The translations under genes were made by a program, and so were the position numbers. The notes below the pieces were generated by a model. It had not been told where the DNA came from. It made no database searches and worked only from the letters and a program-made list of their open reading frames with translations. From positions 1 to 60,725 of the forward strand of contig JBGPKK010000005.1 in NCBI GenBank assembly GCA_041485905.1: 60,725 nt of DNA, read 5' to 3'. The stretch comes from Vicinamibacteria bacterium (GTDB lineage Bacteria > Acidobacteriota > Vicinamibacteria > Vicinamibacterales > CAVVIG01). Positions 3,965 through 58,510 of the stretch are shown here, piece after piece (positions within the stretch are counted from its first letter, which is position 1; every line of letters begins with the position of its first letter).

Positions 3965-4492
3965 CTAACCGACGCGGCGCGCTCCGACGAAGCGCTGCGA
4001 CCAGTACGTGGCGCTGAGACGCTCGACACGCACGACGCCGGTGGAGCTTGGCGCGTGAACGAACTCGTCGCCGCCCAACGCAATGCCCACATGCGACGGC
4101 CCCGGCGCGGCCGTGCTGAAGAAGATCAGGTCGCCGGGCGCAATCTCCGCCGGCTTCACCGGAGTTCCCTCCTCGAACTGAGACTTCACGTCGCGCGGCA
4201 GCGCGATGCCGTGCTGTTCGAACACGTACTGCGTGAAGCCGCTGCAGTCGAAGCCGCTCGGATCGTGGCCGCCGTTTCGGTACTGCGTGCCCCGCAGCGC
4301 CAGAGCCGTGCCGGTGAGCGCGTACGTGTCGAACCCAGGCTTGTTCAGCGCGCCTGGCGGGGCCGCGTTCCCGATCCGCGGCGGGACGGCCGCGCCCGGG
4401 GTCGGGAACGGACGTGGCACCGCGCCAGTCGAGGCGCAGCCGGTCGTCACGGCGGCGGCGGTGGCGACGAAAAGGGCGGCCGATCGAAACAT
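3965..4492 (-). CDS. NlpC/P60 (C40) peptidoglycan endopeptidase lipoprotein
   Basis: DCSGFTQYVF, GDLIFF and HVGIAL catalytic core. Lipoprotein signal MFRSAALFVATAAAVTTGC from ATG 4492. Confidence 0.88.
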   Translation of the reverse strand: MFRSAALFVATAAAVTTGCASTGAVPRPFPTPGAAVPPRIGNAAPPGALNKPGFDTYALTGTALALRGTQYRNGGHDPSGFDCSGFTQYVFEQHGIALPRDVKSQFEEGTPVKPAEIAPGDLIFFSTAAPGPSHVGIALGGDEFVHAPSSTGVVRVERLSATYWSQRFVGARRVG

Positions 4493-4520: not shown

Positions 4521-4558
4521 CCCTTCGGCAGGCTCAGGGCGTGCTGAGCTTGTCGAAG
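4521..4558. repeat. palindromic repeat unit (CTTCGxCAGGCTCAGG family)
   Basis: CCCTTCGGCAGGCTCAGGG CGTG CTGAGCTTGTCGAAG. The left arm matches the tamB in-frame units at 55616 and 55666. Confidence 0.75.
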
Positions 4559-4682
4559 CACGACCTTCCATACAGCCGCTAACCCACGCGATTTCAATGT
4601 GTTTACGGCGTCAGCGTCTTGACACCTCTACAACGGTCGGGCAATATTCAAAAGATGATCGGGCCAAAGGCCCGCCTGGACA

Positions 4683-5216
4683 ATGGAACAGACGCTGCTC
4701 CTTAACGCGACGTACGAGCCGCTCAAGGTCGTCCACTGGCAGAAGGCGGTGACGCTGTGGTGCCAGGGCAAGGTCGAGATCATCGAGGTCCACGACCGGG
4801 AGATCCGTGCCGTCTCGTTCAGCTTCAAGATGCCGTCGGTCATTCGCCTGCTCCGCTACATCAAGATCAAGCGGCGGTTCGATTACGTGCCGTTTTCGCG
4901 CGCGAACATCTACGCGCGCGACGATCACAAGTGTCAGTACTGCGGGGACCAGTACCCCACCACCGAGCTGACCTTCGATCATGTGGTGCCGGTCGCCCAC
5001 GGCGGCCGCAAGGACTGGGAGAACATCGTCACCGCGTGCGTCGGCTGCAATCGCAAGAAAGGTGGACGCACGCCGTCCGAAGCCCGCATGCATCTCCGGC
5101 GAATGCCCAGGAGGCCAGAATCGGCGCCCGCCCTGCGCATTACCATTGGTGTGCGCAGCGCGCCCGAGACCTGGCGCGACTATCTCTATTGGAACGTCGA
5201 ACTAGACGACACATAG
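4683..5216 (+). CDS. HNH endonuclease family protein
   Basis: CQYCG, FDHVVPVAHGG and VTACVGCNRKKG HNH/zinc motifs. Confidence 0.85.
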   Translation: MEQTLLLNATYEPLKVVHWQKAVTLWCQGKVEIIEVHDREIRAVSFSFKMPSVIRLLRYIKIKRRFDYVPFSRANIYARDDHKCQYCGDQYPTTELTFDHVVPVAHGGRKDWENIVTACVGCNRKKGGRTPSEARMHLRRMPRRPESAPALRITIGVRSAPETWRDYLYWNVELDDT

Positions 5217-9990: not shown

Positions 9991-12945
9991 ATGGCGCACG
10001 ACTGGATTGCGGTGCGCGGCGCGCGCGTCCACAACCTGAAAAACATCGACGTCGATATCCCGCGGCACAAGCTTGTGGTCATCACGGGCCTGTCCGGCTC
10101 GGGCAAATCGTCGCTGGCCTTCGACACGATTTACGCCGAGGGGCAGCGCCGGTACGTCGAGTCGCTCTCGGCGTACGCGCGCCAGTTCCTCGAACAAATG
10201 GAGAAGCCCGACGTCGATTCGATCGACGGGCTCTCCCCGGCGATTTCGATCGAGCAGAAGACGACTGGGTCCAACCCAAGGTCCACGGTTGGGACCGTCA
10301 CGGAAATCTACGATTACCTCCGGCTGCTGTTTGCGAACATCGGCGTCCCGCACTGTCCCAACTGCGGCAAAGCCATCACGTCCCAGTCGCTCGAGCGTAT
10401 CGTCGACATGGTGATGCTCTATCCGCAGGACGAGCGCATCAACGTGCTGGCGCCGCTCGTGCGCGGCCGGAAGGGGGAGTTCAAGAAGGAGCTCGCCGGA
10501 CTGCGCGCGCGCGGGTTCACCAAGGCGCGCATCGACGGTCAGTTCCGCGCGCTCGAGGAGGACATCAAGCTGGATCGCCGCCGCAATCACACGATCGAGG
10601 TTGTCGTCGATCGCGTGATCGTGCGGGGAGGGGTCGAGCGCCGCTTGACCGAATCGATCGACATGGCGTTGAACCTCGCCGAAGATATCGTGGTCATCAA
10701 CTCGTTCGACGGCGGGGACCGGCTCTTCTCGCGAAAACTGGCGTGCGTCGACTGCGGGATCAGTATGCCAGAGATGACGCCGCGCGCCTTCTCGTTCAAC
10801 TCGCCGCACGGCGCCTGCGCCGACTGCCAGGGCCTTGGCGCGACGATCGATTTCGATCCGCAGCGGGTCGTGCCGGACGAATCGCGATCGCTCGCGGACG
10901 GCGCGATCGCGCCGTGGAACAGGGGCGATCGCCGGTTCGTTCGCGACGCGCTGCAGGGGTTGAGCCGCAACTTCGGCATCGACCTCACGGTGGCCTTCGG
11001 CAAGCTGCCGCGCAAGGCGCGCGAAGTGCTGCTCTTCGGAAGCGGCACCAGCAAGGGCGCGTTCGAAGGACTGATCCCGAACCTGCGGCGGCGGTACGAG
11101 GAGGGCAGTTGGGCGGATCAGGAGGAGCTCGAGGGGTTCCGATCGCTGCGGCCCTGCCCGACGTGCCGCGGCGAACGTCTGAAAACGCAGAGCCTGTCGG
11201 TGAAGGTCAAAGGCCGCACGATCGCCGACCACGTGAACCTGCCGATTTCCGAAGCTCAGAAGGTTGTCGAGAGCCTGCAGTTGACCGATCGGGAAGCGAT
11301 CATTGCCGAGCGCCTGCTCAAAGAGATTCACGATCGGCTGCGGTTCCTGAACGACGTCGGCGTCGGGTATCTGACACTCGGCCGGAGCGCGGCTACGCTA
11401 TCGGGCGGCGAGGGGCAGCGGATCCGGCTGGCCACGCAAATCGGCGCGAACCTCACCGGCGTGCTGTACGTCCTCGACGAGCCGTCGATCGGACTGCATC
11501 AACGCGACAACCGCAAGTTGCTGGCGACGCTGTCGCGGCTCCGCGACCTTGGCAATACGGTCATCGTCGTCGAGCACGATGAAGAGACGATCCGCACGGC
11601 CGATTACGTGATCGATCTCGGTCCCGGCGCCGGGGAGCACGGCGGAGAGGTGATCTTTCAGGGCACGCCGAAGGCGCTAATGGAAAGCGCCACCGAAGCG
11701 GAAAGGGCCACGGAAAAGGGGTCGGGAGTCGTTTCCAGCGGTGACGCCGGGGACGAATTTGGCTCAAAAACAGGCCTGAAAGTGGGTAGAACGGCCGTGG
11801 AAAAGGGGTCGGGAGTCGTAGAAAAGGGGTCAGGAATCCCCTTTTCTTTGACTGGCGCCTATCTCATCGGCGCGCGCTCGATCGCCACGCCGACCGTGCG
11901 GCGGCCGCAGCTGCGGGGCGACATCGTCATTCGCGGCGCTCGGGCCAACAATCTGAAGAACATCGACGTCCGGATCCCCCTCGGCGTGCTGACGGCCGTG
12001 ACGGGGGTCAGCGGATCGGGCAAATCGACACTCGTCAACGACATCCTCTATGCGTCGCTGGCGCGGACGCTGTACAGGGCCGCCGCCGAGCCCGGCGCGC
12101 ACGATCGCATCGAGGGCGTCGAACTGGTCGACAAGGTCATCGAGATCGATCAGTCGCCGATCGGCCGGACGCCGCGGTCCAATCCGGCGACGTATACGGG
12201 CCTCTTCACCTTCATCCGCGATTTGTTCGCGATGATGCCCGACGCCAAAGCGCGCGGCTTCAGGCCGGGCCGCTTCTCGTTCAACGTGAAAGGGGGGCGC
12301 TGCGAAGCGTGCCAGGGCGACGGCGTGATGGCGATCGAAATGCACTTCCTGCCCGACGTCTACGTCACCTGCGAGCAGTGCAAGGGCCGCCGGTACAACA
12401 CGGAGACGCTCGAGATCAGATACCGCGGGAAATCGATCGCCGAGGTCCTCGATCTCACCGTCGATCAGGCGCTGCCGCTGCTCGAGAACTTCCCGGCGAT
12501 CGCCAACAAGCTGCGCACGCTGCAGGACGTCGGACTCGGCTACATCGAACTCGGACAGTCGGCGACGACGCTGTCGGGTGGAGAGGCGCAGCGGGTCAAG
12601 CTGTCGAAAGAGCTGTCGAAGCGCGGCACCGGCCGGACGTTGTACATCCTCGATGAGCCGACCACCGGCCTGCACTTCGAAGACACGCGCAAGCTGCTCG
12701 ACGTGCTGCACAAACTGGTCGACCAAGGCAATACGATTGTCGTCATCGAGCACAACCTCGACGTCATCAAGGCGGCCGACTACCTCATCGATCTCGGACC
12801 TGAAGGCGGCGCCGCCGGCGGACGGATCGTGGGTGAGGGGACCCCCGAAGAAGTCGCTCGTAACGAGCAGTCGGCGACGGGTCGATTCCTGGCCGGCCTC
12901 CTCGCCGACGAGGCGGGACGTCCGATACGTTCCGCTGCGGTCTGA
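9991..12945 (+). CDS. uvrA: excinuclease ABC subunit A
   Basis: Two ABC halves ([20 protein letters not shown]) and Cys zinc modules. Start set at ATG 9991 ([18 protein letters not shown]). Confidence 0.97.
11686..11846. repeat. in-frame repeat/hairpin insertion inside uvrA
   Basis: GGAAAAGGGGTCGGGAGTCGT at 11712-11732 and again at 11799-11819. Hairpin GAAAAGGGG-TCAGGAAT-CCCCTTTTC at 11821-11846. Encodes [23 protein letters not shown]. Confidence 0.8.
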
Positions 12946-53762: not shown

Positions 53763-54281
53763 ATGCAGCACGAGGTGGACATCGGCGGACGCGTCCGCAC
53801 AGTCATCGTCACGCGCTCGGGCGACGGTTTTGCAGTCGAGGTGGACGGCCGCACCAGAACCGTTGACGCCACGCGCATCGATGCGCACACGCTGTCACTC
53901 TTGGTGGGCGAGGTGTGGCCGGATCACGATACAGGCGGCAAAAGCTACGAGGTTGCCCTCTCGCAGGCGGGGCCGGCGCAGCTGATGGTACACGTCGGCA
54001 GGTACGCGTTTCCTGTCAGACTGAGTGGCCGGCGGCGGAAAGACGAGGCAGGACCTGCCGGCGAAGGACCGCAGCGGATCGTGGCGCCGATGCCCGGCAA
54101 AGTGATCCGCATCCTCGTCCGATCAGGGGAGGCCGTGGGTGCACGCCAGCCGCTCGTCGTCGTCGAAGCGATGAAGATGGAAAACGAGCTGCGGGCCGCG
54201 CGCGAGGGGACCGTCGCCGCGATATATGTGACGGAAGGCGCGTCGGTCGATGCCGGCGCGCCGCTGATTGACATCTTGTGA
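53763..54281 (+). CDS. biotin carboxyl carrier (biotinyl-domain) protein
   Basis: C-terminal APMPGKV and VVVEAMKMENEL biotinylation motif. Confidence 0.88.
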   Translation: MQHEVDIGGRVRTVIVTRSGDGFAVEVDGRTRTVDATRIDAHTLSLLVGEVWPDHDTGGKSYEVALSQAGPAQLMVHVGRYAFPVRLSGRRRKDEAGPAGEGPQRIVAPMPGKVIRILVRSGEAVGARQPLVVVEAMKMENELRAAREGTVAAIYVTEGASVDAGAPLIDIL

Positions 54282-57200
54282 ACCTGTACACCTGGCTTCG
54301 ACACCACGCGGCGTACCGCTACGTCAGGATCACGCTGGGCGTGGCGGCGGCGATTCTCGCCGTCTTTCTCGTCACGTTGATCACCGTTGATCTGGGACGC
54401 GTCTCGGTGCCGTTCCTGGAAACGGATGCCAGCGGCAGCTTTAGGTTTTGCGCGAGATGCAGGATCAACCTGCAGCAGTACGCGGAGACACTGGGCAGGA
54501 ACACGTGGAAGCGCCCGATCCACATCGGGCGGCTGAGCGTCCGCTTGCTGACCGGCCACATCCTCGTCGAGAATTTCTCAATCGAAGGGCTGCGGCCGAC
54601 GGACCGTCCCTTCTTTACAGCCAACCGCCTCGAGGTGACCCTCGACTGGACGACCCTGATGCGGCGCGAGGTCACCATTACCTCTGTTGACATGACCGAC
54701 TGGCAGATGCTGGCGGAGAAGTGGGAAAACCGGAACAGCTTTCCGAAATTCACCAACGACGACCAGCAGCAGGATCAGGGGCCGAAGCGCTTTACGACGA
54801 CGCTCAAGTATCTGCGGGCGTGGCGGGGCCAGTTCGCGTACGAGGACCACGAAGCGCCCTGGAGCATCGTCGCTCGCAATCTCGAGATCAACATCGGCAA
54901 TCTCCCCTCGTACCACGGCACGGCCACGTTCAGCGGCGGTACCGTCGCGATTCAGAATGACGTGCCGTTCGGCGCCAGCATGAAGGCGCGGTTCACCCTT
55001 GACGGCGGCCGCGTGCACCTCGAGCGCGTCGACTTCGAGACCGACGGCGCGAAAACCACCGCGACCGGCGACGTCGATCTCGGACACTGGCCCGAGCAGC
55101 GCTATCAGTTCAAGTCGCGTGTGCAGTTTCCACGCATGCGTCAGATTTTCTTCAAGGACGAACGCTGGGAGCTGGCCGGAGACGGTGACTTCACCGGCAC
55201 GTTCCATCTGTTCAAAGGCGGACACGATCTCGCCGGGACGTTCGCCAGCGCGACGATCGGCGTCAACGAGTACCGGTTTCCCGAGCTGTATGGCTCGCTG
55301 CACTGGACGCGGACGGCGCTCGACATCACCAACGCGGGGGCGAAGCTGTTCGGCGGCGACGGGCGATTCACCTATTCGATGCAGCCGCTCGGCTCCATGG
55401 TTCGGCCGACTGCGCGGTTCGAGGCTAGCTTCGACGGTGTGGACGTGCCATCGTTCACCGACTTCGAGCAGCTCAAAGGTCTTCGCTTCGCTGGCACCGC
55501 GGCGGCCGACCATGTGGTGCTCGAATGGCCCCTGGGCCGGTTCGACCAACATCGAGGCAGCGGACACCTCTTCGTCACGCCCCCGGCCGGGACCCAGCCG
55601 ATGACCGCCGCGCGTCCTTCGACAGGCTCAGGACGCCCTGAGGCTCTCGAAGGGCGCGCCGCCGACCCTTCGACAAGCTCAGGGTCGTCCCGAGCCCAGT
55701 CGAGGGACGATCGCAGCCGCGCGCTTCGCGAGTGGGGGCCGTTCGCGCCGATTCCGCTGCCGCGCCATCTTCCCGTCGCCGGCGAGCTGACCTATCGCTT
55801 CGATCCCGGGCAGGTGTACATCGAGCCGAGCCGGTTCGCGACCGAGCACACCGACGTCACGTTTCAGGGATCGACCGCCTGGGGCGACCGATCGCTGCTG
55901 GCGTTTCACGTCACGAGCAGCGACTGGCAGGAAAGCGACCAGGTGCTGGCTGGGCTGATGACCGATTTCGGCGCGGCGACCAGTCCCGTCACCTTCGGCG
56001 GCCGTGGCGAGTTCGACGGGACGATGACCGGTCCGTTCCGGAAGCCCCGCGTGGAAGGCGAGTTCAGCGGCGAGGACTTGCGCGGATTCGATACCGTGTG
56101 GGGCGCCGGCGAGGCACACATTCTGGTCGACAACGGCTACGTGCGCGTCACCGACGGGATCGTCAAACAGAACGATTCCGACATGCGATTCGATGGGCTG
56201 TTCTCGCTCGGGTTCCCGCGAGACGATGGCGGCGAGGAGATCAACGCGCGTATTCGCGTGGTGCGTCGCGACGTCGATTCGCTGCGACATGCGTTCGGGA
56301 TCGACGACTACCCGGTGTCGGGCCTGCTCTCAGGCGAATTCCACCTCACGGGCGAATACCTGCGTCCGGTCGGTTTTGGCGGGATGACGCTCGAGAAACT
56401 GGTGGCGTACGGCGAGCCCTTTGATGCGGCAACCGCCTCGTTGCGGTTCGACGGCTTGGGCGTGCGGCTCGACGACCTGAGGGTGGACAAGGCCGGCGGC
56501 ACGATCACCGGGGCAGCGTTCATCGGATGGGACGCGACTTATTCCTTCAACGTCGACGGCCGGCGCATCCCTGTCGAGAAGATTTCCAAGCTCGCCTACG
56601 CCCGGGCGCGGCTGTCGGGGATCGCGGAATTGTCGGCCAGCGGTAGCGGCACGTTCGACCAGCCCCGCAACGACTACAAGTTCCGCGTGAACGATCTGTT
56701 CATCGGCGAAGAAGGCGTCGGTCAGGTGACCGGCTCGCTCGTGCTTCGAGGAGCGGCGCTCGGCGGAGAGATCGACGCGGCGTCGCCCCGCCTGGCGATT
56801 ACCGCGACCGGTCAGGTCGCCATGACCGCGCGGGCCGAGTCGGACATCACGGTCCGGTTTCACGACATGTCGCTCGATCCCTACGTCCGGCCGTTCGTGC
56901 CGCGCCTGTCCCCATTCACCACGGCGGTCGCGAGCGGATCGATGCGCATCGCCGGACGTCTGACCGACATCGACCACCTGGTGGTCGACGGCAGGATTGA
57001 CAGCCTGGACATGCGGTTGTTCGACTACGCGTTGAAGAACGCGGCGCCCATCCGGATTTCGCTCGACGATCGGGTGGTCACGCTCGAGGGCCTCGAGTTA
57101 ATCGGCGAGGACACACGGCTGCGCGTGGCCGGCACCATCGGGCTGGGCGACGAGCGGATCGCCCTGCAGGCGCAGGGCGACGCGAACCTCGGCATCCTGC

Positions 57201-58510
57201 AGGCCTTCTTTCGCAGCGACCTCCGCGGATCGGGCCACGCCGAGCTGACGGCGGCGATCAGCGGTCCGCTTCGCGAGCCGGTGTTTTCCGGCCGCGCCAC
57301 GATCACCGATGGACGCATCCGCCACTTTTCCCTGCCGCACTCCCTCGACGCGATCAACGGCGTCATCCAGTTCGATGCCAACGGCATCCGTCTCGACGAG
57401 CTGACGGCGACCATGGGCGGGGGCCCTGTGCAGTTCGGTGGCCGGATCGGCTTCGAGGGCTACGGGCCGGGCGAGTTGAACGTCACGGTGCGCGGCAGCG
57501 ACGTGCAACTGCGATATCCCGAAGGGGTGCGATCGGTGATCGACGCCGATCTCGCCGTTCGCGGGAATTTCAAAGCGCCGACGATCGGCGGCACGGTCAC
57601 CGTGAAAAGCGCCGTGTACACGAAGCGGATTGACGCCCCGGAAACACTCCTGGATTTCGCGTTCCGCCGCTCTGCGGACGTGAGTGCCGGCGCGGTCGAC
57701 GTGCCGACGGCCGCGGCGACGATCCCGCTGAGATTCGACCTGCGGATCGTGGTGCCGTCGACGCTGCGCATCGACAACAACCTCGCCCGCGGCGTCGCCA
57801 GCGCGGATCTCACGCTGCGGGGGACCTACGATCGGCCGGTCTGGTTTGGCCACGCGCAGGTGGAGCGCGGCGAGCTGACGTATAAAGGCAAACGGTATCG
57901 CGTGACGAGAGGGACGATCGATTTCACCAACCCGACGCGCGTGGAACCGTTCTTCGACATCGAGGCCGAAACCAACGTGCGCGTCGCCGGCCAGAATTAT
58001 CGCCTCACCGCGGGTGTGACCGGGGCGACAGAGAAGAAGCTCGTGCCCTCGCTCAGCTCCGATCCGCCGCTGCCGGCGGCCGACATCCTCGCGCTGCTCT
58101 TCAGCGATGTTCGCCGGACCGGGGATGTCGAGCTGCGCACGTTGAACCCGACCCAGCGGCAAGCGGATCTGATCTCGGCCAACGCCGCGGAGACCATCGC
58201 CAAGCCGATCGCGGATGCCGGCAAGGTCGTGCAGCGGGCCGTCGGCGTCGACACGTTTCAGCTCACGCCGTTCCTGACCGATGTGAACAGCACGCAGGCC
58301 TCGCGGCTCAATCCCACGGCGCGGCTGACCATCGGCAAGCGCATCTCGGACCGCGTCTATCTGACGTTCTCGCGAAGCCTGGCCTCGTCGATCAACGATC
58401 AGATCATCCTGCTGGAATACGACGCCAACGAGCGGATGTCGTGGATGCTGTCGCGCAACGAGGATCAGCAGACCTACGCGCTTGAGTTCCGCGTGAGGCA
58501 TGCGTTCTGA
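54278..58510 (+). CDS. tamB: translocation and assembly module protein TamB (AsmA-like)
   Basis: N-terminal TM anchor, 1410-aa beta-rich body, DUF490-like C-terminus (LLEYDANERMSWMLSRNEDQQTYALEFRVRHAF). Confidence 0.85.
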   Translation: MNLYTWLRHHAAYRYVRITLGVAAAILAVFLVTLITVDLGRVSVPFLETDASGSFRFCARCRINLQQYAETLGRNTWKRPIHIGRLSVRLLTGHILVENFSIEGLRPTDRPFFTANRLEVTLDWTTLMRREVTITSVDMTDWQMLAEKWENRNSFPKFTNDDQQQDQGPKRFTTTLKYLRAWRGQFAYEDHEAPWSIVARNLEINIGNLPSYHGTATFSGGTVAIQNDVPFGASMKARFTLDGGRVHLERVDFETDGAKTTATGDVDLGHWPEQRYQFKSRVQFPRMRQIFFKDERWELAGDGDFTGTFHLFKGGHDLAGTFASATIGVNEYRFPELYGSLHWTRTALDITNAGAKLFGGDGRFTYSMQPLGSMVRPTARFEASFDGVDVPSFTDFEQLKGLRFAGTAAADHVVLEWPLGRFDQHRGSGHLFVTPPAGTQPMTAARPSTGSGRPEALEGRAADPSTSSGSSRAQSRDDRSRALREWGPFAPIPLPRHLPVAGELTYRFDPGQVYIEPSRFATEHTDVTFQGSTAWGDRSLLAFHVTSSDWQESDQVLAGLMTDFGAATSPVTFGGRGEFDGTMTGPFRKPRVEGEFSGEDLRGFDTVWGAGEAHILVDNGYVRVTDGIVKQNDSDMRFDGLFSLGFPRDDGGEEINARIRVVRRDVDSLRHAFGIDDYPVSGLLSGEFHLTGEYLRPVGFGGMTLEKLVAYGEPFDAATASLRFDGLGVRLDDLRVDKAGGTITGAAFIGWDATYSFNVDGRRIPVEKISKLAYARARLSGIAELSASGSGTFDQPRNDYKFRVNDLFIGEEGVGQVTGSLVLRGAALGGEIDAASPRLAITATGQVAMTARAESDITVRFHDMSLDPYVRPFVPRLSPFTTAVASGSMRIAGRLTDIDHLVVDGRIDSLDMRLFDYALKNAAPIRISLDDRVVTLEGLELIGEDTRLRVAGTIGLGDERIALQAQGDANLGILQAFFRSDLRGSGHAELTAAISGPLREPVFSGRATITDGRIRHFSLPHSLDAINGVIQFDANGIRLDELTATMGGGPVQFGGRIGFEGYGPGELNVTVRGSDVQLRYPEGVRSVIDADLAVRGNFKAPTIGGTVTVKSAVYTKRIDAPETLLDFAFRRSADVSAGAVDVPTAAATIPLRFDLRIVVPSTLRIDNNLARGVASADLTLRGTYDRPVWFGHAQVERGELTYKGKRYRVTRGTIDFTNPTRVEPFFDIEAETNVRVAGQNYRLTAGVTGATEKKLVPSLSSDPPLPAADILALLFSDVRRTGDVELRTLNPTQRQADLISANAAETIAKPIADAGKVVQRAVGVDTFQLTPFLTDVNSTQASRLNPTARLTIGKRISDRVYLTFSRSLASSINDQIILLEYDANERMSWMLSRNEDQQTYALEFRVRHAF
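55616..55706. repeat. two in-frame palindromic units inside tamB
   Basis: CCTTCGACAGGCTCAGG ACGC CCTGAGGCTCTCGAAGG (55616-55654) and CCCTTCGACAAGCTCAGGG TCGT CCCGAGCCCAGTCGAGGG (55666-55706). They encode PSTGSG...PSTSSG. Confidence 0.8.

What the first reader, a model, noticed from the sequence alone, without database searches (positions are those of the whole stretch)
55616..55706. Dispersed palindromic repeat family present in frame in tamB and in intergenic DNA at 4521-4558
Two adjacent imperfect palindromes inside tamB share the left arm CCTTCGACA(G/A)GCTCAGG. They encode PSTGSG...PSTSSG. A third copy, CCCTTCGGCAGGCTCAGGG-CGTG-CTGAGCTTGTCGAAG, lies 29 nt upstream of the NlpC/P60 gene start, in non-coding DNA. 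The left arms of the 4521 copy and tamB unit 1 are near-identical (16 of 17). The same element therefore occurs both between genes and inside an ORF, which is direct evidence for a mobile or recombining REP/MITE-like unit tolerated in coding sequence.
Basis: seen in the sequence. Interest (0 to 1): 0.62.

Follow-up and report, generated by a model that had tools for sequence, protein, structure and literature searches.

The report
Mobile hairpin repeats inserted in tamB
Two copies of a small mobile DNA hairpin repeat sit in frame in a floppy surface loop of the membrane-assembly gene tamB of a soil Acidobacterium; the same repeat interrupts about ten other working genes, and in related bacteria it flanks a tiny GIY-YIG nuclease gene that probably drives it.

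Summary
tamB (54278-58510, +) holds two imperfect palindromes in frame, at 55613-55654 (42 nt) and 55667-55711 (45 nt). A third copy lies at 4521-4562, upstream of the NlpC/P60 gene.

They belong to a real family: 82 hairpin modules at 48 loci in this 5.1-Mb Vicinamibacterales genome, against 10 in a reversed-sequence control. Each module is a variable, co-varying stem around a conserved 13-nt loop, TTCGACARGCTCA. Elements are head-to-head doublets of 42 or 45 nt.

All tamB orthologues examined lack the inserts, including two genomes of the same genus. Unit 1 is 41/42 identical to a copy nested inside another element on contig C12. Filled and empty sites differ between congeneric genomes. At least ten doublet loci lie in frame in real genes (valyl-tRNA synthetase, a UvrA paralogue twice, RNase E/G and others), and 10 of 11 units use the frame that gives Pro-Ser-Thr-Ser-Ser-Gly.

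The genome's Y1 (RAYT-like) transposase genes are flanked by other repeats. In relatives this hairpin flanks a small single-domain GIY-YIG nuclease gene of the Ssn type, which is absent from this assembly.

Verdict: a genuine mobile hairpin repeat tolerated in coding DNA. It is a new variant of known kinds (intragenic REP/RPE, Ssn hairpin systems) and of moderate interest.

The parts
54278..58510 (+). tamB host gene (1410 aa), intact reading frame
   Evidence: Translation has no stop. Pfam TamB, E 1e-48. 54 orthologous loci were found.
55613..55654 (+). Unit 1: 42-nt type-A hairpin doublet CGTCC-TTCGACAGGCTCA-GGACG-CCC-TGAGGCTCTCGAA-GGG, read as RPSTGSGRPEALEG
   Evidence: 41/42 identical to C12:6479(-), which is nested in another element. 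DNA fold -19.4 kcal/mol, z -5.7. Absent from orthologues.
55618..55630 (+). Conserved 13-nt loop of the first module of unit 1 (TTCGACAGGCTCA)
   Evidence: Exact loop match. Flanking stem CGTCC/GGACG.
55639..55651 (-). Loop of the inverted second module of unit 1 (variant TTCGAGAGCCTCA on the minus strand)
   Evidence: Module scan. The same variant occurs in copies on C12, C59, C60 and C80.
55655..55666 (+). Host sequence between the two units (RAAD, conserved in orthologues)
   Evidence: RAAD aligns with orthologues. DNA alignment.
55667..55711 (+). Unit 2: 45-nt type-B hairpin doublet CCTTCGACAAGCTCAGGGTCGTCCCGAGCCCAGTCGAGGGACGAT, read as PSTSSGSSRAQSRDD
   Evidence: The extra 45 nt lie between codons that align on both sides with L001. 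43/45 identical to C8:11101 and 42/45 to C87:13405. DNA fold -13.9 kcal/mol, z -3.2.
4521..4562 (-). Intergenic 42-nt type-A doublet between the divergent NlpC/P60 and HNH genes
   Evidence: 36/42 identical to unit 1. The two small stems co-vary: CGCCC/GGGCG and CGTGCT/AGCACG.
3965..4492 (-). NlpC/P60 gene whose start lies about 29 nt from the intergenic copy
   Evidence: Pfam NLPC_P60, E 2e-29. ATG at 4492 followed by a signal-peptide-like N-terminus.

Best explanation
The tamB segment consists of two independent in-frame insertions of a small mobile DNA hairpin repeat. One is a 42-nt 'type A' doublet and the other a 45-nt 'type B' doublet.

Anatomy (shown). The basic module is a short stem of variable, co-varying sequence that closes a conserved 13-nt loop, TTCGACARGCTCA. 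An element is two such modules head to head, sharing the middle stem strand.

Why it is tolerated (partly shown, partly inferred). Unit lengths are multiples of three and most frames lack stop codons, so a copy that lands in a gene does not break the frame. Copies survive where they fall in a permissive surface loop and in the frame that gives a hydrophilic Pro/Ser/Thr/Gly-rich peptide. In TamB the 29 added residues form a disordered loop between beta strands.

How it moves (inferred). The modules are the recognition hairpins of a small single-domain GIY-YIG nuclease of the Ssn/UPF0213 type, whose gene they flank in related genomes. By analogy with SsnA, the enzyme acts on the hairpin in single-stranded DNA, and host repair or replication completes the copying. 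Insertion occurs at short preferred targets: after GAC for type B and at CG for type A. This genome's assembly has no such nuclease gene. Its copies are therefore orphans of a lost gene, or the gene is unassembled.

Shown: family, anatomy, absence from orthologues, polymorphism, nesting, host genes, frame bias, and the link to the nuclease gene in relatives. Inferred: the enzyme's role and the insertion chemistry.
For: Family and anatomy
- 82 modules against 10 in the control, at 48 loci.
- The loop occurs 15 times against 1.
- Both small stems co-vary. Stem 2: 92% of cells paired, 13 cells changed on both sides, 0 of 500 shuffles reach this, and slid controls give 37-54% paired. Stem 1: 86% paired, 5 double changes.

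Insertion into tamB
- All aligned orthologues lack the segment.
- G001 and G002 (same genus), G021 and G022 also lack it.

Mobility
- Unit 1 is 41/42 identical to a copy that interrupts a type-B element on C12 exactly where the consensus is broken.
- G001 against G000 shows clean 42-nt and 45-nt presence/absence within conserved flanks.
- The UvrA-paralogue inserts are 45 nt each and absent from G001 and G002.

Tolerance
- An AlphaFold2 model of TamB residues 300-640 has mean pLDDT 85. Only residues 448-485, the insert, fall below 50.
- Ten doublet loci lie in genes. Seven of the eight other host proteins have Pfam domains on both sides of the insert.
- 10 of 11 units use the same frame.

Nuclease link
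- In G021 (202 loop copies) a 92-aa GIY-YIG gene has one inverted module about 15 nt upstream and four tandem modules at its stop.
- In G022 two doublets follow the gene.
- In G296, 2 of only 3 genome-wide loop matches lie 65 nt upstream of its two copies of the gene.
- Generalised modules lie within 200 nt upstream of 9 of the 12 closest homologues and 0 of 22 more distant ones. None occurs elsewhere in those loci.
- Published precedent: Ssn nucleases flanked by hairpin repeats that they cut as single-stranded DNA (PMC11893778).
Against: - No small GIY-YIG gene or remnant exists in this assembly. The Pfam scan finds only UvrC, the protein search finds nothing and the best tblastn E-value is 0.25. 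Yet a 41/42 copy pair suggests fairly recent activity.
- The modules do not match the published SRM search pattern: 0 hits in any module locus.
- Here the loop is conserved and the stem varies. In the Neisseria NTS the loop sequence is dispensable.
- Across 401 genomes of the phylum, high loop counts and presence of a homologue correlate only moderately. By my count, 7 of 13 enriched genomes have one, against about 25% overall.
- No GIY-YIG enzyme has been shown to transpose DNA.
- The target-site rules rest on only 3 to 5 events each.
- Unit 1's right arm resembles the ancestral tamB sequence. A 27-nt net change cannot be separated from a 42-nt insertion plus a 15-nt shorter ancestral loop.
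Confidence: 0.7

Rival explanations
1. The repeats are REP/REPIN elements mobilised by a RAYT or IS200-like Y1 tyrosine transposase, as the first reader proposed to check.
For: The genome has three PF01797 (Y1 transposase) genes. The elements are palindromic doublets, as REPINs are.
Against: - The RAYT-like gene at C13:46636-47175 is flanked on both sides by another family, GGCGGACC...CTACGTACG...CCGGACCC.
- The C150 gene is flanked by the GGAAAAGGGGTCGGGAGTCG repeat that is also found inside the window's uvrA.
- The IS200-like gene has none of these modules nearby.
- The elements carry no GTAG tag.
- G022 has 33 loop copies and no Y1 gene, and G001 has 8 copies and none.
Confidence: 0.05
2. 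The family spreads without a dedicated enzyme. Hairpin-prone repeats would be copied by template switching, replication slippage or gene conversion between dispersed copies. The adjacency to GIY-YIG genes would only reflect repeats piling up in the same permissive spots.
For: - No nuclease gene is present in this genome, yet near-identical copies exist.
- Several genomes rich in the loop lack a homologue.
- Unit 1's right arm resembles the ancestral tamB sequence.
- Elements often insert into one another.
Against: - Units have discrete, recurring lengths (42 and 45 nt) and recurring junctions.
- The link to the nuclease gene is specific to one clade (9 of 12 against 0 of 22). Modules lie only next to the gene and nowhere else in about 84 kb of the same loci.
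- The loop is conserved across phyla, which implies recognition by a conserved partner.
Confidence: 0.17
3. The segment is a selected feature of this TamB, or of its mRNA: a functional linker peptide, or a regulatory or stabilising RNA hairpin.
For: - The 101-nt region folds very stably (-39 kcal/mol, z -7.5).
- The reading frame is kept.
Against: - It is absent from all orthologues, including same-genus genomes.
- The same sequence interrupts unrelated genes and intergenic DNA.
- The peptide is predicted to be disordered.
Confidence: 0.04
4. Chance similarity of GC-rich palindromes, or an assembly artefact of the metagenome-assembled genome.
For: The genome is 65% G+C, a draft of 305 contigs, with 2.4% estimated contamination.
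Against: - Shuffle and reversed-sequence controls rule out chance.
- Copies lie on more than 35 contigs, all in frame where genic.
- The same family occurs in independent genomes.
Confidence: 0.01

Closest known systems
Ssn nucleases with their NTS/SRM hairpin repeats (SsnA of Neisseria meningitidis; Chenal et al., Nat Commun 2025, PMC11893778)
   Same: - Short hairpin repeats are dispersed in tens to hundreds of copies, often clustered.
- They flank a roughly 90-aa single-domain GIY-YIG gene on both sides in inverted orientation (G021).
- Distribution is patchy and lineage-specific.
- No transposase is associated.
   Different: - The published SRM pattern does not match.
- Here the 13-nt loop is conserved and the stems vary, whereas in the NTS the stem and a 5' tag matter and the loop is dispensable.
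- About one third of doublet loci are intragenic, against 2% for the NTS.
- The window's genome lacks the nuclease gene.
- Membership of the partner in CDD cd10448 could not be tested. Its closest solved structures are UPF0213 proteins 1zg2 and 1ywl.
Intragenic REPs and Rickettsia palindromic elements (Ogata et al. 2000, recalled from memory; Di Nocera, De Gregorio & Rocco 2013, PMC3733652)
   Same: - Small palindromic repeats are inserted in frame in known genes, including uvrA with double insertions.
- They are absent from orthologues and add short peptides.
- CGTC-type REPs also lack a transposase.
   Different: - There is no GTAG or CGTC tag, no 4-5-nt loop and no CCA tail.
- The sequence family, the unit lengths (42/45 nt) and the phylum (Acidobacteriota) differ.
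- There is a strong bias to one reading frame.
REPIN-RAYT systems (Bertels & Rainey 2011, PMC3116915)
   Same: Inverted doublets of a hairpin unit behave as non-autonomous mobile DNA, presumably served in trans by a single-copy gene.
   Different: The RAYT-like genes of this genome are bound to other repeat families. The candidate partner is a GIY-YIG nuclease, not an HUH/Y1 enzyme.

Membership tests
REP/REPIN-RAYT | A RAYT (Y1 transposase) gene flanked by the same repeats | tested here: not met
   The three PF01797 genes are flanked by other repeat families or by none.
REP/REPIN-RAYT | Conserved GTAG-type tag next to a short conserved hairpin | tested here: not met
   The alignment of 22 copies shows no GTAG. 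The conserved part is the 13-nt loop.
Ssn / SRM hairpin system | Hairpin repeats flank a small single-domain GIY-YIG gene | tested here: met
   Met in relatives: G021, G022 and G296, and in 9 of the 12 closest homologues. Not met in the window's own genome, which has no such gene.
Ssn / SRM hairpin system | Repeat matches the published SRM pattern HGTCWY N0-2 YYVSBRH N0-5 WNVSBRG N0-2 RNCYNB | tested here: not met
   No hit in tamB, in the 4521 copy or in any of the 48 module loci. Genome-wide there are 42 hits against 31 in the reversed control.
Ssn / SRM hairpin system | Partner protein belongs to CDD cd10448 (GIY-YIG_unchar_3) | not testable with these tools
   Pfam GIY-YIG matches at 57-60 bits. 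The nearest solved structures are UPF0213 proteins. There is no NCBIfam hit. CDD is not available here.
Ssn / SRM hairpin system | The nuclease cuts the hairpin only as single-stranded DNA | not testable with these tools
   This needs biochemistry.
CGTC-tagged REPs (Di Nocera 2013) | CGTC tag, 8-9-bp stem, 4-5-nt loop, CCA-like tail | tested here: not met
   Stems are 5-8 bp around a 12-13-nt loop, with no tail. CGTC occurs only as part of some stems.
Intragenic palindromic elements (RPE-like behaviour) | In-frame insertion in a functional gene, absent from orthologues | tested here: met
   tamB. UvrA paralogue, twice. Seven further host genes carry Pfam domains on both sides of the insert.
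MITE | Terminal inverted repeats with a target-site duplication and a related autonomous IS | tested here: inconclusive
   The whole element is a palindrome. Junctions show 2-4-nt repeats (CG; (C)GAC) in 3 to 5 events each. No DDE-type parent was sought systematically.

The most novel reading that the evidence does not exclude
The 42- and 45-nt doublets are the gene-less form of a mobile element class driven by a GIY-YIG single-strand nuclease. No transposition mechanism is known for that enzyme type.

The element would be adapted to life inside genes. Its unit lengths are multiples of three, most frames are stop-free, and one frame gives a harmless hydrophilic linker. That would explain why a third of its loci sit in working, even essential, genes.

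The 13-nt loop would be the nuclease's recognition site. It is conserved from Acidobacteriota to Alpha- and Betaproteobacteria while the stems drift, so the family would be ancient and pan-bacterial.
Probability: 0.3. Interest if true: 0.7.

Novelty: new variant of a known kind. Interest (0 to 1): 0.5.

Why it matters
- It gives a clean, well-controlled case of selfish DNA that writes extra peptide loops into essential proteins (TamB, valyl-tRNA synthetase, UvrA, RNase E/G) without breaking them. This is a source of protein length variation.
- It is also a trap for annotation and alignment of genomes assembled from metagenomes.
- It extends the recently described pairing of tiny GIY-YIG single-strand nucleases with hairpin repeats to a hairpin built differently: conserved loop, free stem.
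- The defined 42/45-nt units and the filled/empty sites make the open question, how such repeats are copied without a transposase, directly testable.

Tried and rejected
- Rfam scan of 55400-55900 at E up to 10 gave only chance microRNA-like hits.
- RAYT link rejected: the Y1 genes carry other repeats.
- Search for the nuclease in the window's own genome by Pfam, protein search and permissive tblastn found nothing.
- The published SRM pattern gave no match.
- The HNH gene next to the 4521 copy is single-copy, and no other module lies near an HNH gene, so I treat the adjacency as coincidence.
- The GIY-YIG gene on a Sphingobium chromid that carries the same loop hairpin is flanked by a canonical CGTCAC-type hairpin, not by this module. 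It gave no support.
- Comparing the valyl-tRNA synthetase with Thermus ValRS shows a longer region at the insert, but the two are too distant to delimit it.
- A full-text literature search for the 13-mers found nothing relevant. The supplements of the Ssn paper are not held.
- I considered that unit 1's right arm derives from ancestral tamB sequence. I rejected this as the main reading because the C12 copy shares that arm.
Full report
**What is there.** The window is contig C5 of a 5.08-Mb draft genome of 305 contigs and 64.7% G+C. Its TamB relatives come from Vicinamibacterales/Acidobacteriota assemblies. The ORF 54278-58510 (+) encodes a 1410-aa TamB (Pfam TamB, E 1e-48) and is followed by a POTRA protein.

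They are read in frame as ...ARPSTGSGRPEALEGRAADPSTSSGSSRAQSRDD.... A third copy at 4521-4558 lies about 29 nt upstream of the ATG (4492) of a minus-strand NlpC/P60 gene, and 120 nt from a divergent HNH endonuclease gene.

**More than chance.**
- The 15-nt core with up to 3 mismatches hits the window 10 times against 2.0 expected. None of 100 shuffles reaches 10.
- The 13-mer TTCGACARGCTCA occurs 15 times in the genome against 1 for the reversed control.
- A scan for the loop closed by a stem of at least 4-5 bp finds 82 modules at 48 loci, against 10 in the reversed genome.

**Anatomy.** I aligned 22 copies. Two subtypes appear: type A with centre GGGCGYCCC, and type B with centre GGGTCGTCCC and flanks CGACCC...GGGACGAC.

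The invariant parts are TTCGAC..GCTCA and its imperfect complement GAGC..GTCGA. The sequences around them vary but stay complementary.
- Stem 2 (columns 24-31 with 44-51): 91.6% of cells paired, 4 pairs and 13 cells changed on both sides, 0 of 500 shuffles as high, slid controls 37-54% paired.
- Stem 1 (columns 3-8 with 22-27): 86% paired, 3 pairs changed on both sides.

The unit is therefore a hairpin with a free, co-varying stem and a conserved 12-13-nt loop. An element is two such hairpins head to head that share the middle strand. Because the two loops are complementary, a whole doublet can also fold as one long hairpin. Unit 1 folds at -19.4 kcal/mol (z -5.7), and the 101-nt pair of units at -39 kcal/mol (z -7.5).

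**It is an insertion.**
- 54 orthologous tamB loci were fetched. None of the aligned ones has the segment. They read ...MTASLDAARAADxxHxxHEWGPFAP..., and the closest (L001, 81% identical) is 72 nt shorter.
- Two genomes of the same genus (G001, G002) and two of the same family (G021, G022) also lack it.
- Codon-level comparison with L001 places exactly 45 extra nt (55667-55711) after the conserved RAAD.
- The upstream 42-nt unit (55613-55654) is defined by a copy on C12 that is 41/42 identical. With a 42-nt unit, the ancestral loop would have been 15 nt shorter than in L001 (42 + 45 - 15 = 72). That is plausible because this loop varies in length among orthologues, but it is an inference.

**It is, or recently was, mobile.**
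1. The C12 copy of unit 1 sits inside a type-B element and splits its consensus GGGTCGTCC|CGAGC cleanly.
2. Orthologous sites in the congener G001 differ from this genome by clean indels in well-conserved flanks. These are a 42-nt doublet (L101 against C15), a 45-nt unit nested in a shared element (L107 against C50) and a single module (L105 against C28).
3. Unit 2 is 43/45 identical to C8:11101 and 42/45 to C87:13405.
4. The loop is patchy among relatives: 202 copies in G021, 33 in G022 and in G036, and 0-3 in most. In a 401-genome sample of the phylum most genomes are at background, with bursts in G062 (30) and G213 (24).

Junctions recur. Type-B inserts follow ..GAC and end in CGAC, CGAT or CGGC. 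Type-A inserts sit at a CG and begin or end with CG. There are only 3 to 5 events of each, so this is tentative.

**Many copies are inside genes.** Of about 30 loci with two or more modules, at least ten lie in long ORFs with coding composition on both sides. Pfam confirms seven of the eight host proteins other than TamB:
- a Ser/Thr kinase with PD40 repeats
- a spermidine-synthase-like membrane protein
- a class-I (valyl-type) tRNA synthetase
- RNase E/G
- a UvrA paralogue, hit twice
- an AMP-binding/acyltransferase enzyme
- a DUF1592-family protein

The two UvrA inserts are 45 nt each. Both are absent from G002, and the second is also absent from G001, whose contig does not reach the first site.

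Ten of eleven genic units are read in the same frame, P-S-T-(S/G)-S-G followed by R-P-E-x-x-E-G or S-S-R-A-x-S-R-D. Only C8 uses another frame (PFDKLKVVPSPVEG). With three frames equally likely, that has a probability of about 1e-4 (my calculation). Selection for a hydrophilic, flexible peptide is the simplest reason.

An AlphaFold2 model of TamB residues 300-640, built with 44 sequences, has mean pLDDT 85 and is beta-rich. Only residues 448-485, the insert, fall below 50, and they lie between two strands.

UvrA-paralogue site 2 is also filled in G021 by a more decayed 45-nt copy, but is empty in G001, G002 and G022. Site 1 is filled in G022 by an unrelated repeat. These look like permissive loops that are hit repeatedly. 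Recurrent insertion and precise loss cannot be told apart here.

- One of the three Y1 genes is IS200-like and has no modules nearby.
- The RAYT-like gene at C13:46636-47175 is flanked on both sides by a different family (GGCGGACC..CTACGTACG..).
- The C150 gene is flanked by the GGAAAAGGGGTCGGGAGTCG repeat that also sits inside the window's uvrA.

- G021: a 92-aa single-domain GIY-YIG gene has an inverted module (stem GCTCATCC/GGATGAGC) about 15 nt upstream and four tandem modules starting at its stop codon.
- G022: two doublets follow the gene.
- G296: two of the genome's three exact loop matches lie 65 nt upstream of its two gene copies.
- Pattern CCYGAGC-N(1-30)-GYCGARGG and its complement: relaxing the module to this pattern finds modules within 200 nt upstream of 9 of the 12 closest homologues. 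It finds none near 22 more distant homologues and none elsewhere in any of these loci.

This is the arrangement published for Ssn nucleases and their hairpin repeats, which SsnA cuts as single-stranded DNA (PMC11893778).

There are real differences.
- The published SRM pattern hits no module locus.
- Here the loop is conserved, not the stem.
- NTS repeats are only 2% intragenic.
- The window's genome has no such gene or remnant.
- Subfamily assignment (cd10448) could not be tested. The closest solved structures are UPF0213 proteins.

The enzyme link is therefore a well-supported association, not a demonstrated mechanism.

**Breadth.** A 46-nt consensus doublet finds the same CCC-TTCGACARGCTCA-GGG hairpin in plasmids and chromids of Sphingobium, Sphingomonas, Novosphingobium, Rhizorhabdus, Nitratireductor, Sinorhizobium, Comamonas and Polaromonas, with up to 28 places per record. 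An intergenic example was read in Sphingobium. The loop is thus conserved across phyla.

I found no paper that prints the 13-mer. In-frame palindromic repeats in genes, including double hits in uvrA, are already described (PMC3733652). Rickettsia RPEs are a further example that I recall from memory.

**Verdict.** The element is a new variant of known kinds and not a new kind of thing. Interest is moderate.

**Limits.**
- The genome is a draft assembled from a metagenome.
- Gene calls rest on my ORF and GC3 test plus Pfam.
- The target-site rules rest on few events.

Noticed in passing
L057 (genome contig C13:46500-47280): A RAYT-like Y1 transposase gene is bracketed on both sides by another composite repeat: GGCGGACCTCATAAGGTCCGCC, then CTACGTACCGTACGTAGG, then CCGGACCCTnTTGGGTCCGG arrays. 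It looks like a classical REP-RAYT unit of a different family in the same genome.
   Followed up: partly
L059 (G022:C228:20300-22200): The small GIY-YIG gene and its two hairpin doublets are enclosed by long inverted arrays of a 7-8-nt repeat: GGATTTGA upstream and TCAAATCC downstream.
   Followed up: no
L061, L065, L070, L071 (upstream of the GIY-YIG gene): The closest GIY-YIG homologues sit just downstream of a tRNA 3' end. The order is: a long hairpin that starts in the ..CCACCA end, then TGAGC..GTCGAA modules, then a conserved GACGATGGCATCGTC hairpin just before the gene.
   Followed up: no
L110 (G021) and L112 (G022), UvrA paralogue; own genome C24:32656-33192: The same codon position of a UvrA paralogue holds a 45-nt unit in this genome and in G021 but is empty in G001, G002 and G022. 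A second site holds this family here and an unrelated 78-nt repeat in G022. These look like recurrently hit permissive loops.
   Followed up: partly
own genome contigs C7:23921-23933 and C21:36178-36190: Two Ser/Thr kinase genes share a 26-nt stretch, CCCTTCGACAGGCTCAGGGCAGGCGG, read as PSTGSGQA just before the ..VME(L/Y)(V/L)EG.. motif. They may be remnants of single modules inside the kinase domain.
   Followed up: no
window 4683-5216: A single-copy 177-aa HNH endonuclease gene (Pfam HNH_5) lies 120 nt from the intergenic repeat copy. No other module is near an HNH gene, so this is probably coincidence.
   Followed up: partly
window 11686-11846: uvrA of this window carries an insert made of a different repeat (GGAAAAGGGGTCGGGAGTCG). 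The same repeat flanks a 249-aa Y1-transposase-like gene on contig C150.
   Followed up: partly
L100 (Sphingobium chromid AP027340.1, about 257 kb): A frameshifted small GIY-YIG gene is bracketed by canonical CGTCAC-CCCGGG-type hairpins. The same replicon also carries many TTCGACARGCTCA-loop hairpins, so two hairpin families coexist there.
   Followed up: no
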